NCBI GenBank assembly: GCA_037969255.1
Contig: JBBKXB010000066.1
Coordinates: forward strand, 1-56,175
DNA length: 56,175 nucleotides
Reading direction: 5' to 3'
DNA from: Bdellovibrionales bacterium
Lineage (GTDB): Bacteria; Pseudomonadota; Alphaproteobacteria; Micavibrionales; JBBKXB01
The notes under the pieces were generated by a model that was not told where the DNA came from, made no database searches, and worked only from the letters and a program-made list of their open reading frames with translations. Shown here piece after piece: positions 19,293-42,795 of the stretch (position 1 is the first letter of the stretch; each line of letters starts with the position of its first letter). Position numbers and translations under genes: made by a program.

Positions 19293-19493
19293 TTTGAAAA
19301 ATATCCTCCAGTTGTTACTAATTATATGCGTGAGTATAACGTATATAATCCCAAATTCAATGATAAAGCGTGACTTTAAGATCGACTTGCCATTTGTTTA
19401 CATGATACACTCGCCTTTATGTTTTTGATACGAGGCCAGCGTCATATCGGTTCAATCAAAACTTTAAATGAGATTTATATACAAAGGATTTTA

Positions 19494-25592: not shown

Positions 25593-25720
25593 TCTATAAA
25601 CCTGTTTTTATCCTTCTTTAGTGGCTTGTGATCCTGCATTTATTTCGGTAAACTTTGGTCACGAATAACAACAATGCCTTGATAACAAGGCTTATTTTGA
25701 TGAATTTATGGATGGGTCAC

Positions 25721-26752: not shown

Positions 26753-26759
26753 TAAATTC

Positions 26760-28346
26760 ATGTTCGTGCGTTCTTATCTAGCCCAGTTTTTTGGAATTAT
26801 TCTTTTATCCGTAACCTTGTCCGCATGTGGCGATAGTGTTGCTATTAATGACACATTGGAAAAAACGGATCGCCAAGTGTCCGATGCCATGAGCAAGTTT
26901 GAGAAAAAAGAAGATTCGCGACGCTCACCTTTAACGGTTTCGGATCGTCCTTGGTATGGCCAAAGCGCTATCAATATTGAATCAGGCTCTCCGCTCCCAG
27001 ATCAACTCACCGCTGGTGACAGCTTAACGCTTACATTTGATGAACCGCTTACATTGCGTCAAACAGCCAATCTTATCCAATCAGTTTCTGGACTGCGCAT
27101 CATGATTAATGCGGCTGGTGGAGGCGCTGGTAATGCACCGAGCACTGAAGGCATTAACCGAGGATTTTTACCTGTAAACGGACGCCAAGTGCGTGGTGGT
27201 AAAATGATTTGGCAAGGTGCGTTAAACGATTTACTTGACCAAGTGGCTGATAATTTTGATGCAAGCTGGTCTTTTGATGGCGGCGCCATCACGATTAACG
27301 AAGAAGTCACAAAGACATTTATGTTGCATTCATTGGCCACTGTTGTATCTGAGACCAGCTCTGTTGAAGGCGGATCAACGGGATCAAGTGGTGGATCAAC
27401 GCTTCCTTCTGTAGAAACACAAGGCACAACCGAGCTTAACGTATGGGAAGAAGTGCGCGGAGTTGTCGATAGTATTGTCGATGGTCGTGGCCGTGCCACA
27501 TTCTCACCATCCACGGGCACAATCACAGTGTCTGGATCACCGAACGCCATTCAAAAAGTTGAAGATTATTTGAGATTCCAAAATGGATTGCGCTTGCGCC
27601 GTATTGCTGTATCTGTACGCGTGCTTGAACTCACAATTGGCCAGGACGTCAACACAACCGTATCAACCACGCAAATTCTTGAGCGCATCATTAACAATGC
27701 CGACATTCAATTGGCCTCTGGCACGGGTGGTTTATCAGGCACATTAGCAACTTCAGGCACATTTACTGATGGTGACATCCAAGCGGCCATTGAGGCCAGT
27801 AAAGATGTTGAGCGCGTCTCTGTTGTCCATAGTGGCGCTGTTGTAACGCTTTCTGATCAACCCGCGCCTTTACAAGTGGGTCGTCAAATTAGCTATCTTG
27901 CGCGTCGTTCCTCGACCAGTGGAACAGACACAACGGGCGGTACAGAAACGCTTGAGCCGGGCACTGTTGATGTTGGCTTGATCATGAATGTGTTACCGCG
28001 CGTTATTGAAGATGACCGTGTGATTTTACGTGTAAATGTGGCACTAACGGACACTGAAACACCGTTCCCGACATTCCCATTAGAGCCTTCATCTGATCAA
28101 ATTCAATTGCCAGAAGTTGACAGCACAGGCTTCCAACAAAACACCGTTCTTCGTAGTGGTGAGACTTTGGTGCTTGCAGGATTTGAGCGAAATGAAAGCT
28201 CGATTAATGATCTTGGTACGCCTGGTTTAAGCTTCTTGCTTGGTGGATCGCGTCAACGCACACAAAGACGTGAAGTAACGGTGATGCTCATCACGGCCAA
28301 TATCATGCCCGAAGATCCATTCACTGTATACGCCAACAACAAGTAA
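26760..28346 (+). CDS. pilN: type IVb pilus secretin lipoprotein PilN (R64 PilN family)
   Basis: Lipobox LSACG. C-terminal secretin domain (VVTLSDQPAPLQVGRQISYL..., GLIMNVLPRVI..., TVLRSGETLVLAGFE). Confidence 0.8.
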   Translation: MFVRSYLAQFFGIILLSVTLSACGDSVAINDTLEKTDRQVSDAMSKFEKKEDSRRSPLTVSDRPWYGQSAINIESGSPLPDQLTAGDSLTLTFDEPLTLRQTANLIQSVSGLRIMINAAGGGAGNAPSTEGINRGFLPVNGRQVRGGKMIWQGALNDLLDQVADNFDASWSFDGGAITINEEVTKTFMLHSLATVVSETSSVEGGSTGSSGGSTLPSVETQGTTELNVWEEVRGVVDSIVDGRGRATFSPSTGTITVSGSPNAIQKVEDYLRFQNGLRLRRIAVSVRVLELTIGQDVNTTVSTTQILERIINNADIQLASGTGGLSGTLATSGTFTDGDIQAAIEASKDVERVSVVHSGAVVTLSDQPAPLQVGRQISYLARRSSTSGTDTTGGTETLEPGTVDVGLIMNVLPRVIEDDRVILRVNVALTDTETPFPTFPLEPSSDQIQLPEVDSTGFQQNTVLRSGETLVLAGFERNESSINDLGTPGLSFLLGGSRQRTQRREVTVMLITANIMPEDPFTVYANNK

Positions 28347-28363
28347 AGGGTAACCCGCATACC

Positions 28364-29725
28364 ATGGCTGATCTGCGCGCCCGCCGTAAACAGGACCAAC
28401 GAAGCAATACTGAAGAGTTGCTTCGTATGGACATGGATGGTGTGCTTAACATTGGCGATAAAAAATATGCTGTTAATTTACTATGGCTTACATTTGATGA
28501 GGCCGCCACAACGGGCGAAACCATCAAAGCGCAAAAGAAAATCCGTCATGATCTCATCAAACCTGATTTTCTTGGTGAACGCTCAAACCTCATTTCACAA
28601 CAAGCTTATGGTCATTTAAAAAAAGGTCATAAAATTGGTATGCCTGTGGCCGCCGCTATTCTCACCGATATTTTGGTGGGCGAATGGCACGGGTGTTTTA
28701 AGGCTGAAAATGGTTGGTGGTATGTAGCGGTTCATGGGGATGCGATTGCCCCAGATGGTGATTTGTTCTTTGATAACGAGGAAAAAGCCTACAAACATTT
28801 TACAGACGCGAATGAACGCCAAGCATGGCCACGTGCCTATGCACCAAGCGAATGGTCAGTGGATGGGGCGAGCGAAGAACTTGATCTTCACGCTTTATTT
28901 AGCAACGCCCTCCCGTCAACATTTTTAAAACCTGTTACGCTCACCGCCCTTTTTGGTAATTTGCGCAATGCCATCACATTTTTTGTGGCTGTCGGCTTTT
29001 TAGCGTTGGTGATGTTAGCGTTTGGAACAACCAGTCTTGGCTCTTATTTCTCTCCGCCCAATCAAGTGAAACGAGCAATTACACTTGATATAACAGATCC
29101 TATTATTGTTCCGCCACGTTATTATGATAGCGCTGTGATTAATAATCGTTTGCTTGAAATTGAAGATTTTGCGGCGCCCGTTCTTATAGATACATGTTTG
29201 AATGTGTTTGAAGATTTATTTGTGGCGCTTCCTGGTTGGCAGATGGATAATTTGTCGTGCCGTGATGGCAATGTGATCGCGACATGGACGCGCACCAAAG
29301 CCCGTATCGCTGATTTGAATAAACTGCGCCCTCGTTTTTCACCTGATGTCGTTATGACGTATGATGGACAAAATAAATTGATGGTGCGGAAACCGCTTGA
29401 TCTCTCAAAATTAGAGAAAATTAATATGCAGGTCAAAAGCAAAGAATATTTATACGCGCTGATCACGGGTCGCCTTGAAACGAAGGGTGATTTATCCATC
29501 GCACAAATTCAAGCGCCCGCACCGCCACAACAAATTGATCCCAATACGGGCGAAATACTTCCCGCACCACCTGCCGATCAGTTCCTGTCGGTGGAGTTCC
29601 AAAGCCCTATCTCGGCGTACGAATGGTTTGAGGATTTTGACATACAGGGCATGCGCCCATTAGAATTAATATGGTCTGTAAGAGATTCGCAGTGGCGTCT
29701 CTCTGGGCTAATACAATATCAATAA
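28364..29725 (+). CDS. pilO: type IVb pilus biogenesis protein PilO-like
   Basis: 453 aa with a single central TM (ITFFVAVGFLALVMLAF). Position and size match R64/PAPI-1 PilO. The assignment is mainly positional. Confidence 0.5.
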   Translation: MADLRARRKQDQRSNTEELLRMDMDGVLNIGDKKYAVNLLWLTFDEAATTGETIKAQKKIRHDLIKPDFLGERSNLISQQAYGHLKKGHKIGMPVAAAILTDILVGEWHGCFKAENGWWYVAVHGDAIAPDGDLFFDNEEKAYKHFTDANERQAWPRAYAPSEWSVDGASEELDLHALFSNALPSTFLKPVTLTALFGNLRNAITFFVAVGFLALVMLAFGTTSLGSYFSPPNQVKRAITLDITDPIIVPPRYYDSAVINNRLLEIEDFAAPVLIDTCLNVFEDLFVALPGWQMDNLSCRDGNVIATWTRTKARIADLNKLRPRFSPDVVMTYDGQNKLMVRKPLDLSKLEKINMQVKSKEYLYALITGRLETKGDLSIAQIQAPAPPQQIDPNTGEILPAPPADQFLSVEFQSPISAYEWFEDFDIQGMRPLELIWSVRDSQWRLSGLIQYQ

Positions 29726-29738
29726 GGTAAGAGGTCTT

Positions 29739-30329
29739 ATGATGAACACTATGACGAATGTAGTTACCACAGGGTTTTTAAAGGGATTGTTCTCAATCTT
29801 ATTGGTGACTTCTGTGCTCAATCCAGCGCTCGCGCAAGACAATGATGATTGGACGTTATGCCCTGAACCTGGTGCTGCGCTCCAAGATGTGCCCGCTGGC
29901 CCTGCTGAAATTCAAGCTGACATTGACCGTTTTACGTTGTGTCTTGATCGCGCAGAACTTCTTCTCAAGCTTGAGGAAGTCAGTAATCGTAATGATGAGC
30001 TCTTGATGGGTGCTTCAGGTATGGGTGGCATGGTGTTGCCTGTGAACCCTACACCGCTTACACAAGCACAAACCGAGGAATTAATGGCCTCCAATGATCC
30101 AAATATGATGGGCGCGTTACCGCCGATAAAAATGGCTGATTACACTATCCTTGGTATAAGTGGTGCGGGGGGTGCACTTGATGCACGCCTCAATACGCCC
30201 GATGGTGATATTCAAATGGTGCGCATTGATGATCATTTAGAAGACGGCTCCGTGGTGAGCTCAATATCCGCGTCTCAAGTTTTCGTACGCAAAGATGGTA
30301 AAACAAGACTTCTACAGTGGGATAATTAA
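29739..30329 (+). CDS. pilP: type IVb pilus biogenesis protein PilP-like
   Basis: 196 aa with a signal peptide. The C-terminal small beta domain (YTILGISGAGGALDARLNTPDGDIQMVRIDDHLEDGSVV) is PilP/GspC-HR-like. Position between pilO and pilQ. Confidence 0.5.
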   Translation: MMNTMTNVVTTGFLKGLFSILLVTSVLNPALAQDNDDWTLCPEPGAALQDVPAGPAEIQADIDRFTLCLDRAELLLKLEEVSNRNDELLMGASGMGGMVLPVNPTPLTQAQTEELMASNDPNMMGALPPIKMADYTILGISGAGGALDARLNTPDGDIQMVRIDDHLEDGSVVSSISASQVFVRKDGKTRLLQWDN

Positions 30330-30335
30330 TTAAGT

Positions 30336-31895
30336 ATGGCCCTTATGATGAAATCCAGTGATCTAAAAACCGCGATTGCCGCTTGGAATAAGCGTCATCC
30401 TCTTACGGCCGAAGGTGGCCCTTTGGATCGTGGTGACAGCTTCCGCCAAATTGCGGCGTTGTTCCCTGATGGACGATTATTAGTCTCTAAATCTCATGCT
30501 GGTAACCCTCAAGTATTGTCTTTGGCCGCCGAAGCGCGTCTTTTGGATATGCCAGACCCAGAAATTCGTCTGGTGGATATCAACCGCATTCAAATCGCCT
30601 ATGAAAATGCCAACAGCGAGTTAACAGTTCGCAACCGTGGTGATGATGTGCGTATGCGCCGTGAAGTGATCAACCTTGTTGATCAAATGGGTATAAAACG
30701 TGCGTCTGATATTCACATCATTGTGTACGAGCAAACCTGTTCGGTGCGCGCGCGTATTGATGGGATGATGCAATTGGTGGCTGAATGGCCACCTGAATAT
30801 GGGCATCGTTTTTGCGCCGCCGCTTTTACCATGGCAGATGCTGCTGATGTGAACTATCAGCCCTATGAATATCAAGGCGCGCGTGTATCCAATCGTAAAG
30901 ATTTACAATTACCCGAAGGCATCATGTCCCTTCGTCTCCAATTTAACCCGACCGTATTTAATGGTCGCGCGCTTATTATTCGTCTTTTGTATAGCTCTGA
31001 TGAAAAAGATGCGGGTGACATTCGCGGTCTTGGTTTCACGGCTGAACAGCTCGAGGATTTTGAATATCTACGCGCCAAACCATTTGGTATTAACATTGTC
31101 GCAGGGCCTACGGGTCACGGTAAATCGACAACTTTGCAACGCAATATCATCGCGATTTTAAAAGAAAATAATTACAACATCGCCGTTTATACGGTGGAAG
31201 ATCCGCCCGAATATACCATTCCTGGCGCGGTACAAATGCCCGTTGTGAATGCCAATACCGCCGAACAACGTTCAGCGCAATTTACCAAAGCCATCGCAGC
31301 AGCGCTCCGTTCAAACCCCGATCGTATTATGATTGGTGAGGTGCGTGATGCGGCTTCTGCGCAACTCGCATTCGAGGCGGCGATGACAGGTCACCAAGTG
31401 TGGACAACACTCCATGCCAATGATGCCATCACGATTCCTTTCCGTCTTCGAGATTTGGATGTGGAACATTATAAAATCGGTGACCCCACACTTTTAACAG
31501 GGCTTGTATCCCAACGCCTGATACGAATTTTGTGTACTGATTGCTGTCGCACAGTGTCCGAAAATGAAATTCCACCCACTATGCTAGCGCGTATGGAAGT
31601 CGTGAATATCCCCATTGAACGCGTACGCCAACGCAACGCTGATGGTTGCGAAACATGTGGTAAAGGTAATGGGTATCAAGGTCGTACCGTGGTTGCCGAA
31701 ATCATTCTCCCTGATGAAGGGTTTATGGATCTTGTGAAACAAGACAAGAAAAACGAGGCTGAAAAATATTGGCTCACGCATCTTGGTGGACGTTCCATGA
31801 GCGAACAAACTGTTGAAATGGTTCTTGATGGACGCGTTGATCCGTTTGATGCCGAACGCACGGTAGGACCGTTTGCTCTGCCTGATCGTGGGTGA
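30336..31895 (+). CDS. pilQ: type IVb pilus assembly ATPase PilQ (GspE/PulE family)
   Basis: 519 aa. Walker A GPTGHGKST, IMIGEVRD, His box VWTTLHAND, tetracysteine CTDCC...CETCG. Confidence 0.85.
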   Translation: MALMMKSSDLKTAIAAWNKRHPLTAEGGPLDRGDSFRQIAALFPDGRLLVSKSHAGNPQVLSLAAEARLLDMPDPEIRLVDINRIQIAYENANSELTVRNRGDDVRMRREVINLVDQMGIKRASDIHIIVYEQTCSVRARIDGMMQLVAEWPPEYGHRFCAAAFTMADAADVNYQPYEYQGARVSNRKDLQLPEGIMSLRLQFNPTVFNGRALIIRLLYSSDEKDAGDIRGLGFTAEQLEDFEYLRAKPFGINIVAGPTGHGKSTTLQRNIIAILKENNYNIAVYTVEDPPEYTIPGAVQMPVVNANTAEQRSAQFTKAIAAALRSNPDRIMIGEVRDAASAQLAFEAAMTGHQVWTTLHANDAITIPFRLRDLDVEHYKIGDPTLLTGLVSQRLIRILCTDCCRTVSENEIPPTMLARMEVVNIPIERVRQRNADGCETCGKGNGYQGRTVVAEIILPDEGFMDLVKQDKKNEAEKYWLTHLGGRSMSEQTVEMVLDGRVDPFDAERTVGPFALPDRG

Positions 31896-31901
31896 TCGTA
31901 C

Positions 31902-32960
31902 ATGAGCAGCTTTCTCACATCACTAGCAATTAAAACACAATTTGGCAGTGATGCACGCGAACGTTTTTATACAAAAATTGCGCAGTTGCTTGATAATGGC
32001 GTTAATTTAGACACATCTCTTATACAGCTTCAAAAAGTTGCCAGTCGCCGTAAAAATTCAACGCTCATTCGTTTTTATGGATCACTTCGTAATGTGCTCG
32101 CCAATGGTGGGAATATTGGCCAAGCCTTATCGCCCTATTTACCCTCATCAGAAGCCATTATGATTGAAACGGGCGCTAACACAGGTAAATTGACAACCGC
32201 GCTCAACAATACCGTGCAAATGATGGTGCAACAAAAGAAATTGAAAAAGGCGATTGTTGGCTCTATGGCCTACCCAATTATGCTTTTTATCATGCTTATT
32301 TTGGCGCTTTATTTGGTGTCCACTCAGATCATTCCCATTTTTTCCGAGGTTCTCCCCCTTGATCAATGGGAAGGCCTATCTTTGACCGTTGCGAATGTGT
32401 CTTTGTTTATTCGCGCCTATGGACTGAAACTTCTTATCTTATTTGCTGTTATCATTGCGCTTATTATGTGGTCTCTGCCCAATTGGACTGGACGGTCTAG
32501 ATTAATCGTTGAAAAGATATTCCCGTGGAACATTTACCGTCTGTGGCAAGGCTCTGCATTTTTGCTCGCTGTGTCATCATTAATGTCAGCAGGTGTAAAG
32601 TTGGATGAGGTGTCGCTTCGCAAACTTGGTCAAAAAACGAGCCCTTATTTAAAACAACGCATCACCGCCATTCAACGTCAAATGGTTGCGGGTATGAATT
32701 TGGGAGAGGCCATGAATCGCACGGGTTATAAATTTCCCGATGAAGAAATTATTGATGACATTCTTGTGTATGCCACGCTCAAAGGCTTTGACGAGAGTAT
32801 TTATCGAATCACCAATCGATGGATAGACGATCTGGTACAAAACATCACCAGCCTCATGAAGGGCGTGAACACCCTGATGCTTTTTGCAGTGTCGGCTGTG
32901 ATTGGCTCTTTGATTATTTCGTTCTATGATATCTTCCAGATGATCAATGCTCAAAATTAA
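31902..32960 (+). CDS. pilR: type IVb pilus platform protein PilR (GspF/PilC family)
   Basis: 352 aa with the GspF-like two-repeat architecture and three TM segments. Confidence 0.75.
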   Translation: MSSFLTSLAIKTQFGSDARERFYTKIAQLLDNGVNLDTSLIQLQKVASRRKNSTLIRFYGSLRNVLANGGNIGQALSPYLPSSEAIMIETGANTGKLTTALNNTVQMMVQQKKLKKAIVGSMAYPIMLFIMLILALYLVSTQIIPIFSEVLPLDQWEGLSLTVANVSLFIRAYGLKLLILFAVIIALIMWSLPNWTGRSRLIVEKIFPWNIYRLWQGSAFLLAVSSLMSAGVKLDEVSLRKLGQKTSPYLKQRITAIQRQMVAGMNLGEAMNRTGYKFPDEEIIDDILVYATLKGFDESIYRITNRWIDDLVQNITSLMKGVNTLMLFAVSAVIGSLIISFYDIFQMINAQN

Positions 32961-33531
32961 ACAGGCTGCACACAAACATTATGGCTTCACATTGCTCGAG
33001 CTATTACTCGTAGTAGGTATTGCCGCCATTTTAATTGTGGCTGGTATCACAACCTATAACCTTGTAACACGCGGTAATCAGGTCAATGAAACCATAAGAT
33101 TGGTCAATATTTTAGCGGATCAAACAAGACGATTATACGGTTCACAAAATAATTACGGTGCCTCGGGAGCAAATATAGAAACGGCTTTGTTTAATGTCGG
33201 CGCTATCCCCGCTAAATATAAAGATGTGGCCAATGCGCAAATTATTTCCCCTTACAGCGCCATCGCCAATGCGGTCAAAGTTGAAGCTTTGGAATTACCC
33301 GCAGTAAGTTTGGGTGGTTTTGTTATATATTTAGCCGTACCTCCTGCTCTTGTTCCTGAAATTGCCGCAGCATTTGATCCCAACAAAAACACCAATGTGC
33401 ATGTTATACGTTATTGTGGATTCGGCGCTATATTTGCAGGCGACACCTTTGATCTTTCCGCTATATCATCAACATGTGGTAACAGTACAACGGTTCCCTC
33501 TGATGAAAACTTTGGAATACTTTTTAAATAA
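32947..33531 (+). CDS. pilS: type IV prepilin, paralogue 1 (PilS-like)
   Basis: Class III signal MLKIKQAAHKHYG|FTLLELLLVVGIAA (Gly-1, Phe+1, Glu+5). C-terminal Cys pair (C-x19-C). Overlaps pilR by 14 nt with no obvious SD. Confidence 0.75.
   Translation: MLKIKQAAHKHYGFTLLELLLVVGIAAILIVAGITTYNLVTRGNQVNETIRLVNILADQTRRLYGSQNNYGASGANIETALFNVGAIPAKYKDVANAQIISPYSAIANAVKVEALELPAVSLGGFVIYLAVPPALVPEIAAAFDPNKNTNVHVIRYCGFGAIFAGDTFDLSAISSTCGNSTTVPSDENFGILFK
32983..33090 (+). repeat. conserved 5' pilin segment, copy 1 of 2 (direct repeat)
   Basis: 108 nt with about 10 mismatches against 33655-33762. All differences are synonymous, so 36 identical residues are encoded (GFTLLE...GNQVNE). Confidence 0.9.
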
Positions 33532-33636: not shown

Positions 33637-34182
33637 ATGATAAAAAACAATAAAGGTTTTACATTGCTCGAGCTATTACTCGTGGTAGGTATTGCCGCCA
33701 TTTTAATTGTTGCTGGTATCACAACTTATAACCTTGTGACACGCGGTAACCAAGTGAACGAAGCTGTTCGTCTTGTGAACACATTGGCCGACCAAACACG
33801 TCGCCTTTATTCATCACAAAGCACGTATGGTACATCTGCAACGAATATTGAAGCCGCGCTTTATAACGCTGGTTCAGTACCGTCACGTTATATCAGCGCA
33901 ACCGCTGGTGTGATCACATCACCGTTTTCATCCGCCGCAACTGCCGTTGCTGTAACGGGTGATGCAACCGCTGGTCAATTCAATGTGTCTATGGCTATGC
34001 CACCAAACTTGGTGCCTGAAGTTGTGAGCACATTTAACCCTGCGCAATCATCCGACATTGTTAGTGTGACTTATTGTGGTAGCACAACAACCGCGAATGT
34101 TGATCCAGCAACCGTTGCTACGACTTGTGGTAGCGCGACAACGATCCCAACATCTGCAAACTTTAACGTAAAGTTCCGTTAA
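33637..34182 (+). CDS. pilS: type IV prepilin, paralogue 2 (PilS-like; probable major pilin)
   Basis: MIKNNKG|FTLLELLLVVGIAA. Strong SD AGGAGG at 33623-33628. C-terminal Cys pair (C-x16-C). Followed by a strong intrinsic terminator. Confidence 0.85.
   Translation: MIKNNKGFTLLELLLVVGIAAILIVAGITTYNLVTRGNQVNEAVRLVNTLADQTRRLYSSQSTYGTSATNIEAALYNAGSVPSRYISATAGVITSPFSSAATAVAVTGDATAGQFNVSMAMPPNLVPEVVSTFNPAQSSDIVSVTYCGSTTTANVDPATVATTCGSATTIPTSANFNVKFR
33655..33762 (+). repeat. conserved 5' pilin segment, copy 2 of 2
   Basis: See 32983-33090. Confidence 0.9.
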
Positions 34183-34207
34183 ACTTTAATTCTTATATCA
34201 ATAAAAA

Positions 34208-34238
34208 GCCCTTTGGTTCATCCCGAGGGGCTTTTTTT
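34208..34238 (+). terminator. rho-independent terminator after pilS paralogue 2
   Basis: GCCCTTTGG-(6-nt loop)-CCGAGGGC forms a stem of about 9 bp including 2 G-U pairs, followed by T7 (34232-34238). Confidence 0.75.
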
Positions 34239-34287
34239 ATGGCGCCAAAGTCACTTAAAACGTCTTATAATCTTTACGTTTTATTGA

Positions 34288-34303
34288 TATTTTATGGTAT
34301 AAT
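34288..34303 (+). promoter_or_regulatory. extended -10 promoter candidate (TATTTTATGGTATAAT) for the pilV-like operon
   Basis: TGnTATAAT at 34295-34303, 46 nt upstream of ATG 34349 and downstream of the pilS terminator. Shares a 15-nt identity with 49247-49261. Confidence 0.6.
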
Positions 34304-34348: not shown

Positions 34349-35908
34349 ATGCGCATGAAACGATACAAAGCCAATCAAGAGCAAGGTGCCAGTATATTTC
34401 TGGGGCTTTTTGCTGTGCTTATTATCGCAGGCTATATCCTCGTGAACGTCAATGTCGACAAAGATCGTATCATTCAAGAGCGTGTGACCCAGACAGCATG
34501 GCTGATCAAACAAGTTTCTGAGGCCGCACGCTTATATGTTCGCGATCAAAATGTGGCTGGCGCCGCCGTTTATCAAAAAACCGCATTATGCACCACGCCG
34601 CGCGCAATCACTGTCAATGAGCTTGTGCTTGCGGGGTATATTGGTGCCAGCATTGGTGAAAAAAATACAGCGCTCACTAGTTTTATTACACCTCTTGATC
34701 AAACCATTCAAATCATCGCCGCCAATTCCAATATTGATTCGAGCGATTGTAGCCCCACCGCTCTGGGTAATGTCGCGGCCACGGCCTACATCATATTACA
34801 ACCTCCCACACAAGGCATTGATAACATCGTGCTCGCGGCTTTGGCAGAAGCGTTAACGGTTGAGGATATGCCCGTTGGCAACCCAATCTTTGATAATTTT
34901 GGCAATAATGTTTCTGATAATTGTGGCGCGAGTCCCGCCACCATTCAATGGGACACGGGCTGTCTTAACAACACGCAATTTTCTTTTTTAACGGGCGGTG
35001 TGCCCTTTACGAATTCATACATGGGTGTGCCGACATGGCTGACATTCCGCGGGGATAACCGCGCTGTGTTCCGTTATGAACAGGCTGAAAATCCAGCCGC
35101 CACACAAATGCAAACCAATTTGCTCATGGCAACCATTGATCAAAATAATGACATAGACACGTGTGCACAGCGCCAATACACAACGACCGATGAATCTCTT
35201 ATTGCCGCACAACCAACCGCCACAAAACAAATCAACAGTGGTGTGTGTAGTGACACTGGTAACAGACAAAACATTAACAATGTCGGCAATTTGACGACCA
35301 ATCGCGTGCTTAACAACGGGTTCACCTCGACAGGCAACACAGCGATAGTGGGCAATGTACGCGCGTTTAATGGCGCCAATGCCATTCAAATGAATGATAT
35401 AAATTTCACGGGCGGGACATCAACCATTACGGTTGCACCGCGCGATCCATTAAGTCCCAACGCACCGCGTGTTGTGATGAACGATGTGACGGCTGATCTT
35501 GTCCAAGCCGATACAGGGAGTGCGACCAACAGTTTTGCCAGCGGGGAAACATCCGTCATTAACGCCTTTAGCGTGAATGGTGGCGGGATCATCATAGACA
35601 ACACAAGTGGCGCTGGACGCGGAGTTCTGGCCAATACTATGGGCGGGACAGCCAATAATGTCACCGTGTCCAATAATGCAACATTTGGAGGCAATACATC
35701 CATCGCCAGCCAAACATCGCTATCTGGTAGCAGTAACATCCCACTGGCCGCGGCGCGGATCAACGCCAATGACGTAACTCTTAATGGTGATATCACAGTG
35801 GGAAATACTTTAACGGTTTCGGGCACTGTGAATACCGCCATAACATCGGTGGGTCAGTGTGTGGGTGATTGTCCAGATCGTTCACCAGATATAGAGCCAC
35901 CATTATGA
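34349..35908 (+). CDS. large pilin-like protein 1 (PilV-position; non-canonical N-terminus, N/T/G/S-rich repeat tail)
   Basis: 519 aa. N-terminal hydrophobic helix QEQGASIFLGLFAVLIIAGYILV (no Glu+5). The C-terminal ~220 aa is low-charge N/T/G/S/A/V repeat sequence ending QCVGDCPDRSPDIEPPL. Confidence 0.55.
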   Translation: MRMKRYKANQEQGASIFLGLFAVLIIAGYILVNVNVDKDRIIQERVTQTAWLIKQVSEAARLYVRDQNVAGAAVYQKTALCTTPRAITVNELVLAGYIGASIGEKNTALTSFITPLDQTIQIIAANSNIDSSDCSPTALGNVAATAYIILQPPTQGIDNIVLAALAEALTVEDMPVGNPIFDNFGNNVSDNCGASPATIQWDTGCLNNTQFSFLTGGVPFTNSYMGVPTWLTFRGDNRAVFRYEQAENPAATQMQTNLLMATIDQNNDIDTCAQRQYTTTDESLIAAQPTATKQINSGVCSDTGNRQNINNVGNLTTNRVLNNGFTSTGNTAIVGNVRAFNGANAIQMNDINFTGGTSTITVAPRDPLSPNAPRVVMNDVTADLVQADTGSATNSFASGETSVINAFSVNGGGIIIDNTSGAGRGVLANTMGGTANNVTVSNNATFGGNTSIASQTSLSGSSNIPLAAARINANDVTLNGDITVGNTLTVSGTVNTAITSVGQCVGDCPDRSPDIEPPL

Positions 35909-37272
35909 TGAAACAACATCCAAAAAATACCAAACTTCAACGCGCCTTTAGTTTATTAGAGGTTCTTTTGGCTGTGGGCATCATGGCGACCATCTTGGCA
36001 ATTGGGACTGTGATCACCACGGATCTTGCGCGTCAAATTGTGAATGAAAAAGCCGCTGGGCAAATGCTCACCCTTCAACGCGCGGGTGAAGAATACGCGA
36101 CCTCTAATTTCAACAAACTTTTAAATTCGGCGGTGGCTGGTAATATTGCCTCGCCGACCTCAAGCCGTGTTGTTAACATCAGCACATTAATATCGGATGG
36201 ATTCTTGCCCAATGGTTTCGAGGCCGAAAACCTCCTCAATCTTGATATGGCGCTCTATTTGAGAAACGCGACCAATATCTCGGGTGTCGCGCCCATAGCC
36301 ACAATTGAAGTGATCACTGTGACATCAGGAACACCCGCCACACCGCGCGGTCAAACGTTTAAATGGATTTTGGACACCGCGCTTTTTGGCGGTGGTAAAT
36401 TAGGTGTTTTAAGTAATATTGGCGCTGGATTTAACAATGTGAGCTTCACCAGCACCAATGGCTCTTGGAATGTTCCCATTGGTAATATTTCGTCTTATAG
36501 CCCCTCTTTGCCCACAGCTTCCAATGATCCTTCTGGCTATATTGCCGCTTATGGGCGCGTGACGAGTGAAGACGTGTTTGATTCGAACGTGCTGTATCGT
36601 ATTCCAATCGCTGGAAATCCAAATCTCAATCGTATGCAAACAGGTCTCAACATGAACAATAATGGGTTGACCGATGTTGGTACGCTAACCGCCGAACAAA
36701 TGAACACGGGCAATGTGAATTTAAACAGCACAGGGCGTTATGCGCTCTCATCCACGGGCACCATGAATTTTGGAGCGGGCACAACATCCATGTCTGGTGA
36801 TATGGTTGTGTACGGTGTTGATCCAGCGGCGGGTAATTCTTTGACCGCAAATTCTGTGAATTTAGGCACAGGTAGCCTTAACGCAGGCTCAATTGCCACC
36901 GATACGCTCAACGCAGGCGCGGACGGTCTTGTGGCCAATAACCTTAACACCGTTTCGGCGACATCTCAGGATTTGATCGCCAATGGCACGTTAAATTTAA
37001 ACAGCGTGAACACAGTATCAACGTCAAACATGCAACTTGGTGGATCATCAGGATCAACAACATTAACGGCTGATAATCTAACCGCGGGCAATCTTGTTGC
37101 GGGTGAAGCCAACGTCACAGGCGGCATGACTGTCACCAATGATGGTATCAGCACGGTCAACAATATGTCGGTTGGTGGGGGCGCCACAGTGCGCTCTCTT
37201 GGCACGAACAAAGCCACATTCACTGATTTGTGTTACACCACGGGCGCAAAGGATGACATTAATGGCTGTTAA
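35905..37272 (+). CDS. pilV: PilV-like minor pilin/adhesin 2
   Basis: ATGA overlap with the upstream stop. Class III-like signal MMKQHPKNTKLQRA|FSLLEVLLAVGIMA (Glu+5). N/T/G/S-rich tail ending LCYTTGAKDDINGC. Confidence 0.65.
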   Translation: MMKQHPKNTKLQRAFSLLEVLLAVGIMATILAIGTVITTDLARQIVNEKAAGQMLTLQRAGEEYATSNFNKLLNSAVAGNIASPTSSRVVNISTLISDGFLPNGFEAENLLNLDMALYLRNATNISGVAPIATIEVITVTSGTPATPRGQTFKWILDTALFGGGKLGVLSNIGAGFNNVSFTSTNGSWNVPIGNISSYSPSLPTASNDPSGYIAAYGRVTSEDVFDSNVLYRIPIAGNPNLNRMQTGLNMNNNGLTDVGTLTAEQMNTGNVNLNSTGRYALSSTGTMNFGAGTTSMSGDMVVYGVDPAAGNSLTANSVNLGTGSLNAGSIATDTLNAGADGLVANNLNTVSATSQDLIANGTLNLNSVNTVSTSNMQLGGSSGSTTLTADNLTAGNLVAGEANVTGGMTVTNDGISTVNNMSVGGGATVRSLGTNKATFTDLCYTTGAKDDINGC

Positions 37273-38620
37273 GAGACTCAAACGCAAACAATACGGCGTA
37301 CAACAACGTGGATTTTCACTGTTTGAAATGTTGCTCACGGTTGGTGTCGCCGCGACATTTTTCATTTTCTTATTTAATATTGGTCAAACCATTGCGCGTG
37401 ATCAAGCCATTCGCGCTTCCGCTTCTTACGTACAATCTATTGATGAAGCCGTGAATGTAATGCTTTCTGATCCAGCGCGTTTCGATGTTCTTTACAACAA
37501 TGTGGTGGCTTCTGGCGGTGTTGCACAAGTCAGTATTGATGCGCTCAAAGGCAATCCAAGTGGCGTGCTAAACGGCTTACCCAATAACCCGATTTTGAAC
37601 AGTGCCTTCCCTGCCATAGGGCCTTTTAGACAAACATATAGTGTTATTTTTAGAACCCCGCCCGTGGTGGGCACAGCGCGCGTGATTGAAAGCTACGTGG
37701 CCAGTCAAACGCTTCTGGAAGACACACTTGTGACACGCATTGCTGGCGCGATTGGTGGAACAGGCGGTGCACTGCGCGATCAATCAACAGTCGCTGGTGT
37801 GAACAATATTCGCGGTGCCTATGGTGGCTGGGTTGCCTCAACAAATAATATTTTAATCAGTAGTTGGTACACAACCATCGCTGGGCAATCCGCGCCAACT
37901 TTGCAAAATGGTGGGTATATTGTGTCTTATAATTATTATGACGTATCACGCATCGCCAAAGATTACCTCTATCGTAACAATACAGGAGTTCCCGCGCATA
38001 ACACTATGTACACCGATCTTTCCATGGGCAGTTATAATGTGCTGGGCGCGGATACTGTGTCAGGCACTGGCGCGTTGACCTCTAGCGAACTTATAGTCGA
38101 GGGCACAACCACATTTGCCAATGCCCCTTCTATCGCGGGATCATTACAATCTGATGGTCCATTAGCACTCGGGTCAATAGGCGCGGCAGGGGGCGCTGGT
38201 ATTCAAATGAGCGCCGCAGGTTCGGACGTTGTTGTGAATAACAACACAAACGCCACGCGCGCTGTTTTTAATAATGCATTCACCACCGATAGCCATACGG
38301 CCAACGCTCTGACAACGCAAGATACGACGATTAATTCTGGTAATTTTAATGCCTCTAACACCAACGGTATCAACGCTTCGGCAGCCAGTGGCGGGTTAAT
38401 TGTGTCGGGCAACGTCAATGTGACCAACCAAGTGCAATCAAGCGCCATCACAACCAATAATTTGACCGCCAATAACGGTCTTGTCGCCACCATTGGCGCC
38501 TCTATATCGGGAGATGTCGCACAAAACTCTGGCACAACTGTGTCCAATGAATATGGGAGTCAAAGTTTGACGCGGTCAACGACTTCGGACTTTCCATGTG
38601 GCATCGGGTGTGGCGAATAA
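37262..38620 (+). CDS. pilV: PilV-like minor pilin/adhesin 3
   Basis: ATG 37262 overlaps the upstream gene by 11 nt. Signal MAVKRLKRKQYGVQQRG|FSLFEMLLTVGVAA. N/T/G/S-rich tail ending PCGIGCGE. Confidence 0.65.
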   Translation: MAVKRLKRKQYGVQQRGFSLFEMLLTVGVAATFFIFLFNIGQTIARDQAIRASASYVQSIDEAVNVMLSDPARFDVLYNNVVASGGVAQVSIDALKGNPSGVLNGLPNNPILNSAFPAIGPFRQTYSVIFRTPPVVGTARVIESYVASQTLLEDTLVTRIAGAIGGTGGALRDQSTVAGVNNIRGAYGGWVASTNNILISSWYTTIAGQSAPTLQNGGYIVSYNYYDVSRIAKDYLYRNNTGVPAHNTMYTDLSMGSYNVLGADTVSGTGALTSSELIVEGTTTFANAPSIAGSLQSDGPLALGSIGAAGGAGIQMSAAGSDVVVNNNTNATRAVFNNAFTTDSHTANALTTQDTTINSGNFNASNTNGINASAASGGLIVSGNVNVTNQVQSSAITTNNLTANNGLVATIGASISGDVAQNSGTTVSNEYGSQSLTRSTTSDFPCGIGCGE

Positions 38621-38679: not shown

Positions 38680-39549
38680 ATGAAACACGCGCTTCAACTA
38701 TCCTCTTTATTTTTGATCACTTTGGTGTTTGCCACCCAAGCTGATTTTGCACATGCACAAGCAAACTTGCCTGAATTCACAGTTATTGACCTTGGTGAAC
38801 TTAATCTTGATACACGTCAAACGGGTGAAAAAAGCTACAAAGAGAAAATTGAACAAGTTGATAATGATCAAATGCGTATGCATCTCTTGTTGCAAAATGA
38901 GATCACAATGCTTGGCGCTTTGCAAAGCTGGCAAACACAAGTGAGCGAATTAGAATCCACTTATGCGCGCGCGGGTCTACCGTTTACGCAGCCCGAACCA
39001 CCCCGCACAATTTGCGAACAAATTCCGAGCAATTCAATTTGCAATGAAGCCTATCCTGATCTCGCACCTAAACCTAAAAAAACGGATGCGAAAAAAATCA
39101 GCAACGCACTGGCTGTATCAGGTGTGATCACCCCACAACAAAGCGCTGTGCCAGCGCCCGTCATGGCACGCGCCACCAATTATGAATGGGCATCCATTTC
39201 TTGCGTGATTGACAATTGTCGAGCGGTGCTTTTGGACAAAGCTCAAAATCTACGCTTTAGCGTTTTTAGCGGTGAAACCATAGACGATGGCATCATGATT
39301 ACAAAAATTACACCCTTTGGTGTTACTGTGAGTGAAAAGGGAAAAACGATTAAATTGCGCTCATCTGCACCTAGCATAGATACGGACACCGCATCCGTTG
39401 CTCCTGTGACAACAAAAGATCAACTTGTGAATAAATTATCTGATTTGCCCGCCAACGCATTGGACAATGTTGAACCTGTTAAACCTATCGTTATTGATGA
39501 TGGATCAAACGCCCCAAGCGCACCGCTTGGCAACACTGGCTTATTTTAA
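38680..39549 (+). CDS. secreted protein in the pilM position (PilP/GspC-HR-like C-terminal domain)
   Basis: Start ATG 38680 gives signal peptide MKHALQLSSLFLITLVFATQADFAHA. The C-terminal FSVFSGETIDDGIMITKITPFGVTVSEKGKTIKL resembles small pilotin/PilP-type beta domains. Last gene of the pil block, as pilM is in PAPI-1-type clusters. Confidence 0.4.
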   Translation: MKHALQLSSLFLITLVFATQADFAHAQANLPEFTVIDLGELNLDTRQTGEKSYKEKIEQVDNDQMRMHLLLQNEITMLGALQSWQTQVSELESTYARAGLPFTQPEPPRTICEQIPSNSICNEAYPDLAPKPKKTDAKKISNALAVSGVITPQQSAVPAPVMARATNYEWASISCVIDNCRAVLLDKAQNLRFSVFSGETIDDGIMITKITPFGVTVSEKGKTIKLRSSAPSIDTDTASVAPVTTKDQLVNKLSDLPANALDNVEPVKPIVIDDGSNAPSAPLGNTGLF

Positions 39550-40559: not shown

Positions 40560-40602
40560 TTAATTGGTCTCCTTTAAATTCTTATTTTAAATTCTTATCT
40601 CA

Positions 40603-42714: not shown

Positions 42715-42725
42715 GCATCAGATAT

Positions 42726-42741
42726 TGCAAAACACGTGCCA
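42726..42741 (-). promoter_or_regulatory. sigma-54 (-24/-12) promoter of flgK
   Basis: The minus strand reads CTGGCACGTGTTTTGCAA, which fits YTGGCACG-N4-TTGCW. GG is at 42740/42739 and GC at 42728/42727. The GC lies 13 nt upstream of the flgK ATG (42714). Confidence 0.8.
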
Positions 42742-42753
42742 GAATCAATTTAA

Positions 42754-42773
42754 GAGCCGGTCATAACCGACTC
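42754..42773 (-). terminator. hairpin between the 548-aa gene stop and the flgK promoter
   Basis: GAGCCGGT-CATA-ACCGACTC on the + strand. The 8-bp stem has a C-A mismatch on + that becomes G-U on the - transcript. A/T tracts lie on both sides, and the U tract is better on the + strand. Confidence 0.4.
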
Positions 42774-42795
42774 TTTTATTTAAATTTTTTAAAAA

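What the first reader, a model, noticed from the sequence alone, without database searches (positions are those of the whole stretch)
34349..38620. Three tandem, translationally coupled giant PilV-like genes with different N/T/G/S-rich repeat tails and no shufflon
Seen in the sequence: three consecutive ORFs of 519, 455 and 452 aa are joined by an ATGA overlap (35905-35908) and an 11-nt overlap (37262-37272). ORF2 and ORF3 have class III signal-like N-termini (..QRA|FSLLEVLL, ..QRG|FSLFEMLL, Glu+5). ORF1 has only a hydrophobic helix after QEQG|A and lacks Glu+5. The C-terminal ~200 residues of each are almost free of charged or aromatic residues. They consist of short recurring units rich in N, T, G, S, A and V (for example LNAGADGLVANNLNTVSATSQDLIANGTLNLNSVNTVS). 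This produces long stop-free antisense ORFs (35386-35841, 36966-37223, 38203-38547). Each protein ends with a Cys pair in its last ~20 residues (QCVGDC, LCYTTGAKDDINGC, PCGIGC). Established knowledge: in R64 the single pilV gets alternative C-termini through Rci/shufflon inversion, and these determine recipient specificity. Inference: three hard-wired pilV paralogues could serve as fixed alternative tip adhesins in place of a shufflon. The repeat tails look like beta-solenoid/beta-helix sequence, which to my knowledge has not been described for PilV.
Basis: partly seen in the sequence, partly recalled or inferred. Interest (0 to 1): 0.75.

Follow-up and report, generated by a model that had tools for sequence, protein, structure and literature searches.

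The report
Three-gene PilV minor-pilin tip module
Three adjacent genes encode ancient, non-equivalent copies of the PilV tip protein of a conjugation-type thin pilus (one lacks the glutamate that lets pilins stack), an arrangement kept in every related genome found, which suggests they build one mixed pilus tip rather than acting as interchangeable adhesins.

Summary
ORFs of 519, 455 and 452 aa (34349-35908, 35905-37272, 37262-38620) overlap by 4 and 11 nt. They have N/T/G/S/A/V-rich C-terminal halves and terminal Cys pairs. The window holds no sfx-like repeats and no recombinase.

The genes lie downstream of two pilS genes in an R64-type type IVb pilus operon (pilL-N-O-P-Q-R-S). That operon is embedded in a chromosomal Dot/Icm type IVB secretion cluster.

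All three N-terminal ~250-aa domains are homologous (hhalign 98.6-100%). ORF2 is the counterpart of plasmid PilV: it matches Pfam Shufflon_N above the cut-off and is 26-28% identical to annotated PilV.

The same ORF1-ORF2-ORF3-ORF4 order occurs in 12 lineages, and a 13th, truncated contig is compatible with it. ORF1 never has Glu5 (12 of 12). The three N-domains are only ~16-25% identical to each other.

I therefore favour a heteromeric tip or initiation complex capped by ORF1 over "hard-wired alternative adhesins". This is an inference.

The beta-solenoid reading of the tails is only weakly supported (AlphaFold pLDDT 45-73, no significant fold hits). A canonical PilV read here already carries a shorter G/N/T-rich stretch after the same junction motif.

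Verdict: a new variant of a known kind, of moderate interest.

The parts
25655..32960 (+). Type IVb (R64-type) pilus machinery. Genes in order: pilL/TcpQ-like (25655-26752), pilN secretin (26760-28346), pilO (28364-29725), pilP (29739-30329), pilQ ATPase (30336-31895), pilR platform (31902-32960).
   Evidence: Pfam TcpQ, Secretin, PAP_PilO, T2SSE and T2SSF. NCBIfam pilP_fam at E 1.7e-5, below its cut-off.
32947..33531 (+). pilS1, a major-pilin paralogue (194 aa).
   Evidence: N_methyl, with weak Bundlin. Direct repeat with pilS2, 75% over 217 nt.
33637..34182 (+). pilS2, major pilin (181 aa).
   Evidence: N_methyl and weak PilS. Orthologous pilS precedes the trio in every locus that extends upstream of it.
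34203..34243 (+). Intrinsic terminator-like hairpin plus U-run after pilS2. Probably attenuates transcription into the minor-pilin genes.
   Evidence: RNA fold -20 kcal/mol, z -3.8, followed by U7. Function is inferred.
34295..34303 (+). TGGTATAAT, an extended -10-like element 46 nt upstream of the ORF1 start.
   Evidence: Read from the sequence. A consensus match only.
34349..35908 (+). ORF1, 519 aa: a divergent PilV paralogue. Prepilin-like leader ..EQG|ASIFL with a hydrophobic residue at +5 and no Glu5. N-domain to about aa 260, with junction motif VFRYEQAENPAATQMQTNLLM at aa 240-260. A beta-rich tail follows, ending in C-x-G-D-C-P-D-R. Proposed apex or first subunit.
   Evidence: hhalign against the ORF2 family gives 98.9%, E 2e-17 over 245 columns. 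No Glu5 in the 11 family proteins or in TARA locus L014. AF2 predicts an N-terminal helix at 12-69 plus an alpha/beta domain at pLDDT 75-90, and a tail at pLDDT 45-58. No Pfam hit in 0 of 11 members.
35905..37272 (+). ORF2, 455 aa: the canonical-type PilV homologue. Leader ..QRA|FSLLEV, with Glu5. Junction motif LYRIPIAGNPNLNRMQTGLNM at aa 230-250. Tail of about 205 aa ending in LCYTTGAKDDINGC.
   Evidence: Pfam Shufflon_N 34.3 bits against cut-off 27.5. tblastn to plasmid PilV gives 26-28% identity over aa 10-272. The two plasmid PilV proteins tested score best with the ORF2 HMM. AF2 pLDDT 65.4, with a pilin-like helix and sheet followed by an all-beta tail.
37262..38620 (+). ORF3, 452 aa: a second PilV paralogue. 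Leader ..QRG|FSLFEM, with Glu5. Junction motif LYRNNTGVPAHNTMYTDLSM at aa 236-255. Tail of about 197 aa ending in PCGIGCGE.
   Evidence: hhalign against the ORF2 family gives 99.6-100%. The ORF3-type forms a distinct clade of 60 representative clusters, typically ending ..FG.C..GC.
38680..39549 (+). ORF4, 289 aa: a secreted accessory protein that always follows the trio. It has a signal peptide, a conserved Cys pair, a low-complexity linker, a small beta domain and a C-terminal TGLF.
   Evidence: Present after the trio in 12 of 12 loci that extend that far. TGLF ends 10 of 12 orthologues. Weak PilP/GspC-HR-like similarity. Role unknown.
19419..20507 (+). DsbG-like thiol:disulfide interchange protein at the head of the T4BSS/pilus cluster. 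A possible helper for the conserved Cys pairs.
   Evidence: NCBIfam PRK11657 DsbG, E 8e-38, above its cut-off. The link to the trio is inferred.

Best explanation
The three genes encode three ancient, non-equivalent paralogues of the PilV minor pilin of an R64-type type IVb pilus. They are made together and assemble into one heteromeric tip (initiation) complex.

Proposed mechanism:
- A prepilin peptidase encoded elsewhere removes the short leaders.
- ORF1 is the largest of the three and has a hydrophobic residue instead of Glu5. It can sit only at the apex, because it has no preceding subunit whose N-terminal amine it must neutralise.
- ORF2 (the orthologue-like copy of plasmid PilV) and ORF3 both keep Glu5. 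They dock beneath or beside ORF1 through their alpha1 helices and diverged pilin domains.
- PilS then polymerises under this complex.
- The three ~200-260-aa beta-rich, N/T/G/S-rich tails project distally. Each is closed by a disulfide loop. [quoted passage not shown]

What is shown and what is inferred:
- Shown: homology, operon context, conserved trio, loss of Glu5 in ORF1, tight gene spacing.
- Inferred: processing, co-assembly, apex position of ORF1, tail fold and adhesive role.
For: 1. Context. The genes lie in a pilL-N-O-P-Q-R-S operon inside a DotD/C/B ... DotI/H/G/IcmJ cluster.

2. Homology.
- All three N-domains are homologous over about 245 columns, including the leader helix and the junction motif. 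ORF2-ORF3: 100%, E 6e-41. ORF1-ORF2: 98.9%, E 2e-17. ORF1-ORF3: 98.6%, E 1e-15.
- ORF2 matches Shufflon_N above the cut-off and annotated PilV on plasmids.

3. Fixed module.
- The order ORF1-ORF2-ORF3-ORF4 is seen in the window, L001-L010 and the TARA scaffolds L014/L015.
- The truncated JGI contig L013 shows an ORF1-type C-terminal end, then an ORF2-type gene, then an ORF3-type gene.
- Among 145 further cluster representatives, 63 are ORF2-type and 60 are ORF3-type.

4. Non-equivalence.
- The paralogue N-domains are only 16-25% identical to each other. Orthologues of each paralogue share 38-43% mean pairwise identity in the N-domain.
- ORF1 lacks Glu5 in the 11 proteins and in L014. ORF2 and ORF3 keep it.
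- A large minor pilin with a hydrophobic residue at position 5 is the proposed signature of the first subunit of a filament (PMC5207764).

5. Co-expression.
- Overlaps or gaps of 47 nt or less separate the three genes in 12 of 12 loci.
- A terminator lies after pilS2.

6. Precedent.
- Type IVb tips are trimers of one minor pilin in TCP and CFA/III (PMC6048534, PMC9565799).
- Other type IV filaments use a heterotrimeric PilI/J/K complex (PMC13533445).

7. Predicted structure. AF2 gives a pilin-like alpha1 helix plus a beta-sheet for ORF1 and ORF2.
Against: - There is no direct evidence of interaction. No multimer prediction could be run.
- Tail-length correlations between the paralogues are only suggestive: Pearson 0.64-0.74, n = 11, not corrected for phylogeny.
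- The ORF1 family is recognised by no Pfam model, including N_methyl. Its +1 residue varies (A, F, V, Y), so cleavage is unproven.
- ORF1 is encoded first. GspK-type caps are usually encoded last (PMC5207764).
- The window's ORF2 has Ala at -1.
- No prepilin peptidase gene is present in the window.
- The known R64-type systems compared here (IncI plasmids, pXCV183, PAPI-1) encode a single PilV.
Confidence: 0.5

Rival explanations
1. The three proteins are hard-wired alternative tip adhesins. Each pilus carries one kind, perhaps as a homotrimer. The cell thereby gets three binding specificities without a shufflon.
For: - The three tails differ and are not detectably homologous to one another.
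- The tails evolve somewhat faster than the N-domains: mean pairwise identity 0.28-0.30 against 0.38-0.43.
- In R64 and TP114, the PilV C-termini determine recipient specificity (PMC9045228, PMC10654706).
- No shufflon is present.
Against: - Alternatives should keep a common docking domain, as in the shufflon, where only the 3' end of pilV is swapped (PMC10654706). Here the N-domains share 16-25% identity, and ORF1 has lost Glu5 in all 12 lineages where it can be read.
- Copy number and order never vary across the loci retrieved. ORF2-type and ORF3-type representatives occur at about 1:1. This is unlike families of adhesin alternatives that expand and contract.
- The tails are conserved enough to align across orthologues. 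They are not hypervariable.
Confidence: 0.2
2. Only ORF2 and ORF3 are pilins. ORF1 is a derived, uncleaved bitopic inner-membrane or periplasmic protein. It would act as an assembly, anchoring or chaperone factor whose N-terminal helix is simply a membrane anchor.
For: - The ORF1 family matches no Pfam model, including N_methyl.
- It lacks Glu5, and Phe at +1 is not conserved.
- Its N-domain carries extra conserved Cys residues and a WDTGC motif that ORF2 and ORF3 lack.
Against: - Gly is kept at -1 in 10 of 11 family members; the eleventh (P0011) is probably N-terminally truncated.
- The N-domain is homologous to the ORF2 and ORF3 pilin domains over its full length, including the junction motif.
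- It carries the same kind of tail and terminal disulfide loop.
- The precedent is GspK/PilK-type caps, which also lack Glu5 and are the largest subunit (PMC5207764, PMC13533445).
Confidence: 0.15
3. The three proteins are ordinary membrane-anchored or secreted beta-helix adhesins unrelated to the pilus. Alternatively, a classical shufflon exists with its recombinase and sites outside the contig.
For: - The tails resemble beta-solenoid adhesins in composition. The top Foldseek hits, although not significant, are beta-solenoids.
- Only 56 kb of the genome is visible.
Against: - ORF2 matches Shufflon_N and plasmid PilV. Eight of the nine ORF2/ORF3-family proteins scanned match N_methyl.
- The position directly after pilS is invariant in the loci that extend upstream.
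- There are no repeated inverted sites in or after any of the three genes. No spare promoterless C-terminal cassettes are seen: the next genes are ORF4 and then flgL.
Confidence: 0.03

Closest known systems
PilV of IncI1/IncI2 plasmids (R64, TP114) with the Rci shufflon
   Same: - Same operon type (pilL...pilS-pilV), next to an I-type (Dot/Icm-like) T4SS.
- ORF2 shares the Shufflon_N domain and 26-28% identity with plasmid PilV.
- Same junction motif, LYR..G.P.LN.M...DM, followed in the Lelliottia plasmid PilV by a G/N/T/A/S-rich stretch.
- Similar overall size of about 410-500 aa.
   Different: - One gene there, with swappable 3' cassettes and the rci recombinase (PMC9045228, PMC10654706).
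- Here there are three full-length diverged paralogues, no cassettes and no recombinase.
- The tails here are two to three times longer. They end in a small Cys loop instead of the Cys/aromatic-rich C-terminal region seen in the plasmid PilV proteins read here.
- The locus here is chromosomal.
Shufflon-less single PilV: PAPI-1 PilV2 (Pseudomonas aeruginosa) and pXCV183 PilV (Xanthomonas)
   Same: - R64-type pilus without a shufflon.
- pXCV183 is typed MPF_I and encodes a single 495-aa PilV.
- PAPI-1 PilV2 recognises recipient LPS (PMC5297154).
   Different: - A single pilV followed by pilM in pXCV183.
- Here there are three paralogues, one without Glu5, followed by an unrelated ORF4. ORF4 shows no similarity to pXCV183 PilM.
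CofB and TcpB, the minor pilins of the CFA/III and TCP type IVb pili
   Same: - Large type IVb minor pilins with a pilin domain plus an extended beta-rich C-terminal region.
- They form a trimer at the pilus tip and initiate assembly (PMC6048534, PMC9565799, PMC5207764).
   Different: - A homotrimer of one gene product that keeps Glu5.
- No sequence similarity was detected here (PDB profile searches).
- In this system the three positions would be filled by three different paralogues.
GspI/J/K and PilI/J/K (+PilC/PilY1) tip initiation complexes of T2SS and type IVa pili; BfpI/J/K of the bundle-forming pilus
   Same: - A heterotrimeric minor-pilin complex in which exactly one subunit, the largest, lacks Glu5 and caps the filament (PMC5207764, PMC13533445).
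- Encoded in a syntenic operon.
- A non-pilin partner can dock through its last ~10 residues. Compare the invariant C-terminus of ORF4; this is an analogy only.
   Different: - No homology to GspI, GspJ or GspK was detected: no such Pfam or NCBIfam hits reached their cut-offs.
- All three subunits here are large PilV paralogues with long tails.
- The Glu5-less gene is first in the operon, not last.

Membership tests
PilV / Shufflon_N (PF04917) minor pilin of the R64-type type IVb pilus | Match to the Shufflon_N constant-region model above Pfam's gathering score. | tested here: met
   - ORF2: 34.3 bits against cut-off 27.5, E 2.4e-8. All four ORF2-type orthologues scanned match.
- ORF3 and ORF1 do not match the Pfam model directly. 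They are linked to ORF2 by profile-profile comparison at 100% and 98.9%.
PilV / Shufflon_N (PF04917) minor pilin of the R64-type type IVb pilus | Class III (prepilin) signal: short basic leader, Gly at -1, hydrophobic helix, acidic residue at +5. | tested here: inconclusive
   - ORF3: fully met (QQRG|FSLFE).
- ORF2: Glu5 is present, but the window has Ala at -1 where orthologues have Gly.
- ORF1: Gly at -1 but a hydrophobic residue at +5 in 12 of 12 lineages, so the acidic +5 criterion is not met.
- Cleavage itself cannot be tested here.
PilV / Shufflon_N (PF04917) minor pilin of the R64-type type IVb pilus | Encoded downstream of pilS in a pilL-pilV-type operon adjacent to an I-type T4SS. | tested here: met
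   The same position is seen in the related loci that extend upstream.
Shufflon system (PilV + sfx cassettes + Rci) | Multiple inverted sfx recombination sites flanking alternative 3' cassettes, plus an Rci tyrosine recombinase. | tested here: not met
   - No repeated inverted sites.
- The sfx-core pattern occurs no more often than chance: 6 hits against 15 expected.
- No recombinase domain in any ORF scanned in the window.
- The genes after ORF3 are ORF4 and flgL.
GspK/PilK-type capping minor pilin | Largest minor pilin of its cluster, with a hydrophobic residue instead of Glu5. | tested here: met
   ORF1 family: no Glu5 in the 11 proteins or in L014. ORF1 is always the longest of the trio, at 519-658 aa.
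GspK/PilK-type capping minor pilin | Sequence or fold homology to GspK (T2SSK family, alpha-domain insertion) with small GspI/GspJ partners. | tested here: not met
   - No Pfam or NCBIfam GspK hit. The only GspI/GspJ matches are weak N-terminal ones to the pilS proteins.
- The partners are large PilV paralogues.
- ORF1 works like a GspK-type cap at most by analogy.
CofB/TcpB-type type IVb minor pilin (homotrimeric tip) | A single minor-pilin gene per operon; detectable similarity to the CofB/TcpB structures. | tested here: not met
   - Three genes, not one.
- PDB profile searches and Foldseek give no CofB or TcpB hit.
- Trimer formation cannot be tested with these tools.
Beta-solenoid / beta-helix tail | Confidently predicted or homologous beta-helical fold with a regular coil repeat. 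| tested here: inconclusive
   - AF2 predicts all-beta tails of short strands, but at pLDDT 45-58 (ORF1) and 57-73 (ORF2).
- The best Foldseek hits are beta-solenoids but not significant: E at least 0.3, TM below 0.25.
- No Pfam or PDB hit for the ORF2 tail profile.
- Only weak periodicity at 6, 12 and 18 residues, and no internal repeats.

The most novel reading that the evidence does not exclude
R64-type thin pili of a widespread group of uncultured bacteria, including marine ones, that carry a chromosomal Dot/Icm system are tipped by an obligate heterotrimer of three PilV paralogues. The Glu5-less ORF1 is the cap. The three long disulfide-closed tails co-fold into one composite beta-helical spike that mediates target-cell contact for type IVB secretion. 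ORF4 docks through its invariant C-terminal TGLF peptide. This would be a type IVb counterpart of the PilIJK-PilY1 licensing complex that arose independently by triplication of the adhesin itself.
Probability: 0.3. Interest if true: 0.75.

Novelty: new variant of a known kind. Interest (0 to 1): 0.55.

Why it matters
How type IVb pili build and arm their tips is an open question. TCP and CFA/III use a homotrimer of one minor pilin. Most other type IV filaments use a PilI/J/K heterotrimer. For conjugative R64-type pili, the papers read here describe the position of PilV only as presumed and call for structural work (PMC9045228, PMC10654706).

A conserved triplet of differentiated PilV paralogues, one of them a Glu5-less 'first subunit' candidate, offers a natural experiment. 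It links the homotrimer and heterotrimer solutions, and it is directly testable by multimer modelling, pull-downs and cryo-EM.

The finding also shows that a thin pilus remains physically linked to a chromosomal Dot/Icm system in many uncultured lineages. This bears on how effector-translocating type IVB systems contact their targets, and on their descent from IncI-like conjugation systems.

Tried and rejected
1. Scans of GTDB species representatives (genome contigs) found no relative. I tried ORF2 alone and motifs from the ORF1 family. The organism therefore could not be named. The motifs were narrow, so absence from GTDB is not proven.
2. PDB sequence searches with full-length family profiles hit only pilin N-terminal helices or noise. 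A weak LpxA match (E 0.16) was not pursued.
3. The ORF2 tail-only profile gave nothing against the PDB or Pfam.
4. Foldseek of both models against the PDB and BFVD gave nothing significant.
5. I tested whether the three tails are homologous to each other. Only about 45-residue matches appeared, at 55-78% probability, so I treat the tails as distinct.
6. I looked for true repeats in the tails. There are none at the DNA level or the profile level, so 'repeat tails' is downgraded to compositional bias.
7. Searches for a shufflon and sfx sites were negative.
8. ORF4 is not PilM: there is no similarity to pXCV183 PilM. A PilP/GspC-HR-like domain is only hinted at.
9. Tail-length covariation was meant as a test of co-folding. 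The correlations are positive but not robust.
10. Literature searches for a described multi-PilV operon, or a Dot/Icm-linked thin pilus in Legionellales, found none. The PilV mentions that turned up were type IVa.
11. A hetero-oligomer structure prediction was not possible with the single-chain tool and its input restrictions.

Full report
**1. The observation**

I read the ATGA overlap and the 11-nt overlap directly.

The N-termini are as described:
- ORF2 is ..LQRA|FSLLEV.
- ORF3 is ..QQRG|FSLFEM.
- ORF1 is ..QEQG|ASIFLGLFA, with Leu rather than Glu at +5.

One detail deserves a flag. The window's ORF2 has Ala (GCC) at -1, where its orthologues have Gly.

The C-terminal halves are 64-72% N+T+G+S+A+V, 7-11% charged and 2-4% aromatic. 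The antisense ORFs exist and follow trivially from that codon composition. The terminal Cys pairs are present and conserved in the orthologues.

Two descriptive points need correcting:
- The tails contain no detectable repeats at the DNA level or the profile level. There is only a weak hydrophobic periodicity near 6, 12 and 18 residues.
- The proteins are not giant for PilV. The two plasmid PilV proteins translated here are 413 and 495 aa.

**2. Context**

The contig is chromosomal. It carries lolA, recR, lptC/A/B, rpoN, hpf, uvrD, surA and rsmA.

From about 19.4 kb it carries a Dot/Icm-type T4BSS:
- a DsbG-like gene, an SLT-domain lytic transglycosylase, DotD, DotC (T4SS_TraI) and a DotB-like ATPase;
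- further downstream DotI, DotH, a DotG/TrbI-like gene, weak DotF-like and TraQ-like matches, IcmJ/DotN, and a 1017-aa ORF with only a faint VirB4-family match.

A complete R64-type type IVb pilus operon is inserted in this cluster. It consists of pilL (TcpQ), pilN (secretin), pilO, pilP, pilQ (ATPase), pilR (platform) and two pilS genes.

After pilS2 there is a strong terminator-like hairpin (-20 kcal/mol, z -3.8, followed by U7). A TGGTATAAT element follows at 34295-34303, and then the trio. This is the layout expected for low-abundance minor pilins.

Directly after the trio comes ORF4 (38680-39549). Then come flgL- and flgK-like genes on the other strand.

**3. What the three proteins are**

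ORF2 matches Pfam Shufflon_N above the gathering score (34.3 against 27.5 bits). By tblastn it hits 1974 plasmids at 26-28% identity over residues 10-272, and every listed match lies on or beside an annotated pilV gene.

Using 11 orthologues per family, profile-profile comparison shows that all three N-terminal domains are homologous over about 245 columns:
- ORF2-ORF3: 100%, E 6e-41.
- ORF1-ORF2: 98.9%, E 2e-17.
- ORF1-ORF3: 98.6%, E 1e-15.

A junction motif, (L/F)(Y/F)R-x5-6-P-x-LN-x-M-x3-L-x-M, closes the N-domain in all three families. It also closes the two plasmid PilV proteins read here: [23 protein letters not shown] in Lelliottia and ALHRQAIPGRPELNRMSTSIDM in pXCV183.

Those two plasmid PilV proteins score best against the ORF2 family HMM, at 82 and 70 bits. 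Only pXCV183 PilV also matched the others, at 30 bits for ORF3 and 18 for ORF1. ORF2 is therefore the ancestral-type copy, and ORF3 and ORF1 are derived paralogues.

AlphaFold2 with shallow alignments gives a long N-terminal helix plus an alpha/beta domain at pLDDT 75-90 for ORF1 and ORF2. This is consistent with a pilin fold. The tails are modelled as all-beta at low to moderate confidence.

**4. The tails**

The ORF2 tail profile has no Pfam or PDB relatives. The three tails are not detectably homologous to each other.

Foldseek finds nothing significant. The best, non-significant, hits are beta-solenoids: tapirin C-domain, GlmU/NeuO/LpxD left-handed helices, TPS domains and ice-binding proteins. 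'Beta-solenoid-like' is thus a reasonable guess and not a result.

The feature is not foreign to PilV. The Lelliottia plasmid PilV has about 90 residues of G/N/T/A/S-rich sequence right after the same junction (GNVNAANGIFTSNVSGANGIFTSNVTAG...) before a Cys/aromatic-rich C-terminal region. The ORF2 HMM aligns about 90 positions past the junction of both plasmid PilV proteins.

The trio proteins therefore look like PilV in which this stalk-like stretch is expanded to 200-260 residues. The globular end is replaced by a short disulfide loop.

**5. Conservation**

The key result concerns conservation. Homologues are rare in the word-indexed search. Even so, every contig I could retrieve shows the same module.

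The evidence for the fixed module is:
- The window, ten further lineages (L001-L010, down to 26% identity) and the TARA Oceans scaffolds L014/L015 (209 and 462 kb) all carry pilS, then ORF1-type, ORF2-type, ORF3-type and ORF4.
- The 3.6-kb JGI contig L013 shows an ORF1-type C-terminal end, an ORF2-type gene and an ORF3-type gene in the same order.
- Gaps between the three genes are overlaps or at most 47 nt in all 12 complete loci.

An exhaustive profile search of 1.84 billion cluster representatives found 2077 relatives, 143 of them at E <= 1e-30. Among the 145 best new ones, 63 are ORF2-type, 60 are ORF3-type and 22 are ambiguous. The duplication is therefore old, and the paralogues co-occur at roughly 1:1.

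ORF1-type proteins have a prepilin-like G|(F/A/V/Y)(S/T)L leader. They never have Glu at +5, in the 11 proteins or in L014. ORF2 and ORF3 types keep Glu5.

Within each family, N-domains average 38-43% pairwise identity and tails 28-30%. The tails evolve faster but are not hypervariable.

**6. Mechanism**

The shufflon keeps one constant N-terminal region and swaps only the 3' end of pilV (PMC10654706). A set of hard-wired alternatives should look similar, with a common docking domain and different tails.

The opposite is seen here:
- The docking domains have diverged to 16-25% identity.
- One paralogue has lost the residue needed to insert beneath another subunit.
- The number and order of genes are frozen.

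In type IV filaments, Glu5 of the incoming subunit neutralises the N-terminal amine of the preceding one. The first subunit does not need it. A large minor pilin with a hydrophobic residue at position 5 has been proposed as the signature of the first subunit of a filament (PMC5207764).

Tip complexes are trimeric in the systems described in the papers read here. TCP and CFA/III use a homotrimer of one minor pilin (PMC6048534, PMC9565799). T2SS and type IVa pili use a PilI/J/K heterotrimer, sometimes completed by the C-terminal strand of PilC/PilY1 (PMC13533445).

I therefore propose that ORF1, ORF2 and ORF3 form one heteromeric tip (initiation) complex, with ORF1 at the apex and the three tails forming the distal contact structure (confidence about 0.5).

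The rivals are:
- mutually exclusive alternative adhesins (0.2);
- ORF1 as a non-pilin membrane-anchored factor (0.15);
- unrelated adhesins or an off-contig shufflon (0.03).

Nothing here demonstrates physical interaction. Tail-length correlations (Pearson r 0.64-0.74, n = 11) are suggestive only.

**7. Comparison and novelty**

A shufflon-less single PilV is known from PAPI-1 (PMC5297154) and pXCV183. Within the limits of the held library, I found no description of an R64-type pilus with three differentiated PilV paralogues, or of a Glu5-less PilV-family member.

NCBIfam matches these proteins only through the generic prepilin N-terminal motif or at scores far below cut-off. The ORF1 family matches no Pfam model.

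I class the finding as a new variant of a known kind. It is a PilV-family tip module of a known pilus type with a new subunit architecture.

The organism could not be named, because both motif scans of GTDB representatives were empty. The marine TARA scaffolds and the Dot/Icm context suggest uncultured bacteria carrying a Dot/Icm system, some of them marine.

**8. Verdict**

PilV family membership, three tandem tightly spaced genes and the absence of a shufflon are all correct. 'Alternative adhesins' is the less likely reading. 'Beta-solenoid' is unproven. 'New to PilV' is overstated.

Interest is 0.55. The finding is not a new kind of system. It is a clean, widespread and testable case that bears on how type IVb pilus tips are built.

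Noticed in passing
window 38680-39549 (+): ORF4 follows the trio in 12 of 12 loci that extend that far. It has a Sec signal peptide, a conserved PPRxICEQVPxNxxC Cys pair, a P/T/S-rich linker and a small beta domain that weakly resembles the PilP/GspC HR domain. An invariant C-terminal TGLF ends 10 of 12 orthologues. It is not similar to pXCV183 PilM. The conserved end recalls the C-terminal docking peptide of PilC/PilY1, but this is an analogy only.
   Followed up: partly
window 39552-44442 (-): flgL-like (335 aa), flgK-like (703 aa) and a 548-aa ORF with no Pfam hit sit between the pilus module and dotI/dotH/dotG. flgK/flgL lie next to or near the module in 10 of the loci examined. It is unexplained why hook-associated protein genes are locked into a T4BSS/pilus cluster.
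   Followed up: no
window 32947-33531 and 33637-34182 (+): There are two tandem pilS major-pilin paralogues, 75% nucleotide identity over 217 nt at the 5' end and divergent at the 3' ends. L002 also has two, while most related loci have one.
   Followed up: no
window 34203-34243 and 34295-34303 (+): A strong terminator-like hairpin plus U7 lies right after pilS2. A TGGTATAAT extended -10-like element lies 46 nt before ORF1. The minor-pilin genes may be expressed by read-through, from their own promoter, or both.
   Followed up: partly
window 35944-35946 (codon for residue -1 of ORF2): ORF2 has Ala (GCC) at the -1 position of the prepilin cleavage site, where its orthologues have Gly. This is one base away from GGC. 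It could reduce processing, or it could be an assembly error.
   Followed up: no
window 19419-20507 (+): A DsbG-like thiol:disulfide interchange protein is encoded at the head of the T4BSS/pilus cluster. It is a plausible helper for the conserved Cys pairs of ORF1-ORF4.
   Followed up: no
window 24543-25226 (+): A Vut_1 family (putative vitamin/queuosine-precursor uptake) transporter gene lies between the dotB-like ATPase gene and pilL.
   Followed up: no
whole window; L001-L010: No A24 prepilin peptidase or retraction ATPase gene was found in the window or called in the related loci fetched. IncI-type operons carry the peptidase just before pilV, as in the Lelliottia plasmid. The peptidase must be encoded elsewhere.
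   Followed up: partly
L014 8001-10735 (TARA scaffold): In this distant lineage the middle gene carries the ORF3-type C-terminal end (..FTCNNGC) and scores equally on the ORF2 and ORF3 HMMs. The third gene ends in ..CATSTNGNCN, and ORF4 lacks TGLF. The assignment of the paralogues may differ in deep branches.
   Followed up: no
Genome-contig collection: Two motif-based scans of 185,579 GTDB species representatives found no member of this family. By contrast, about 140 representative clusters at 50% identity exist in metagenome-derived protein sets. Either the lineage is poorly represented among the reference genomes, or the motifs were too narrow.
   Followed up: partly
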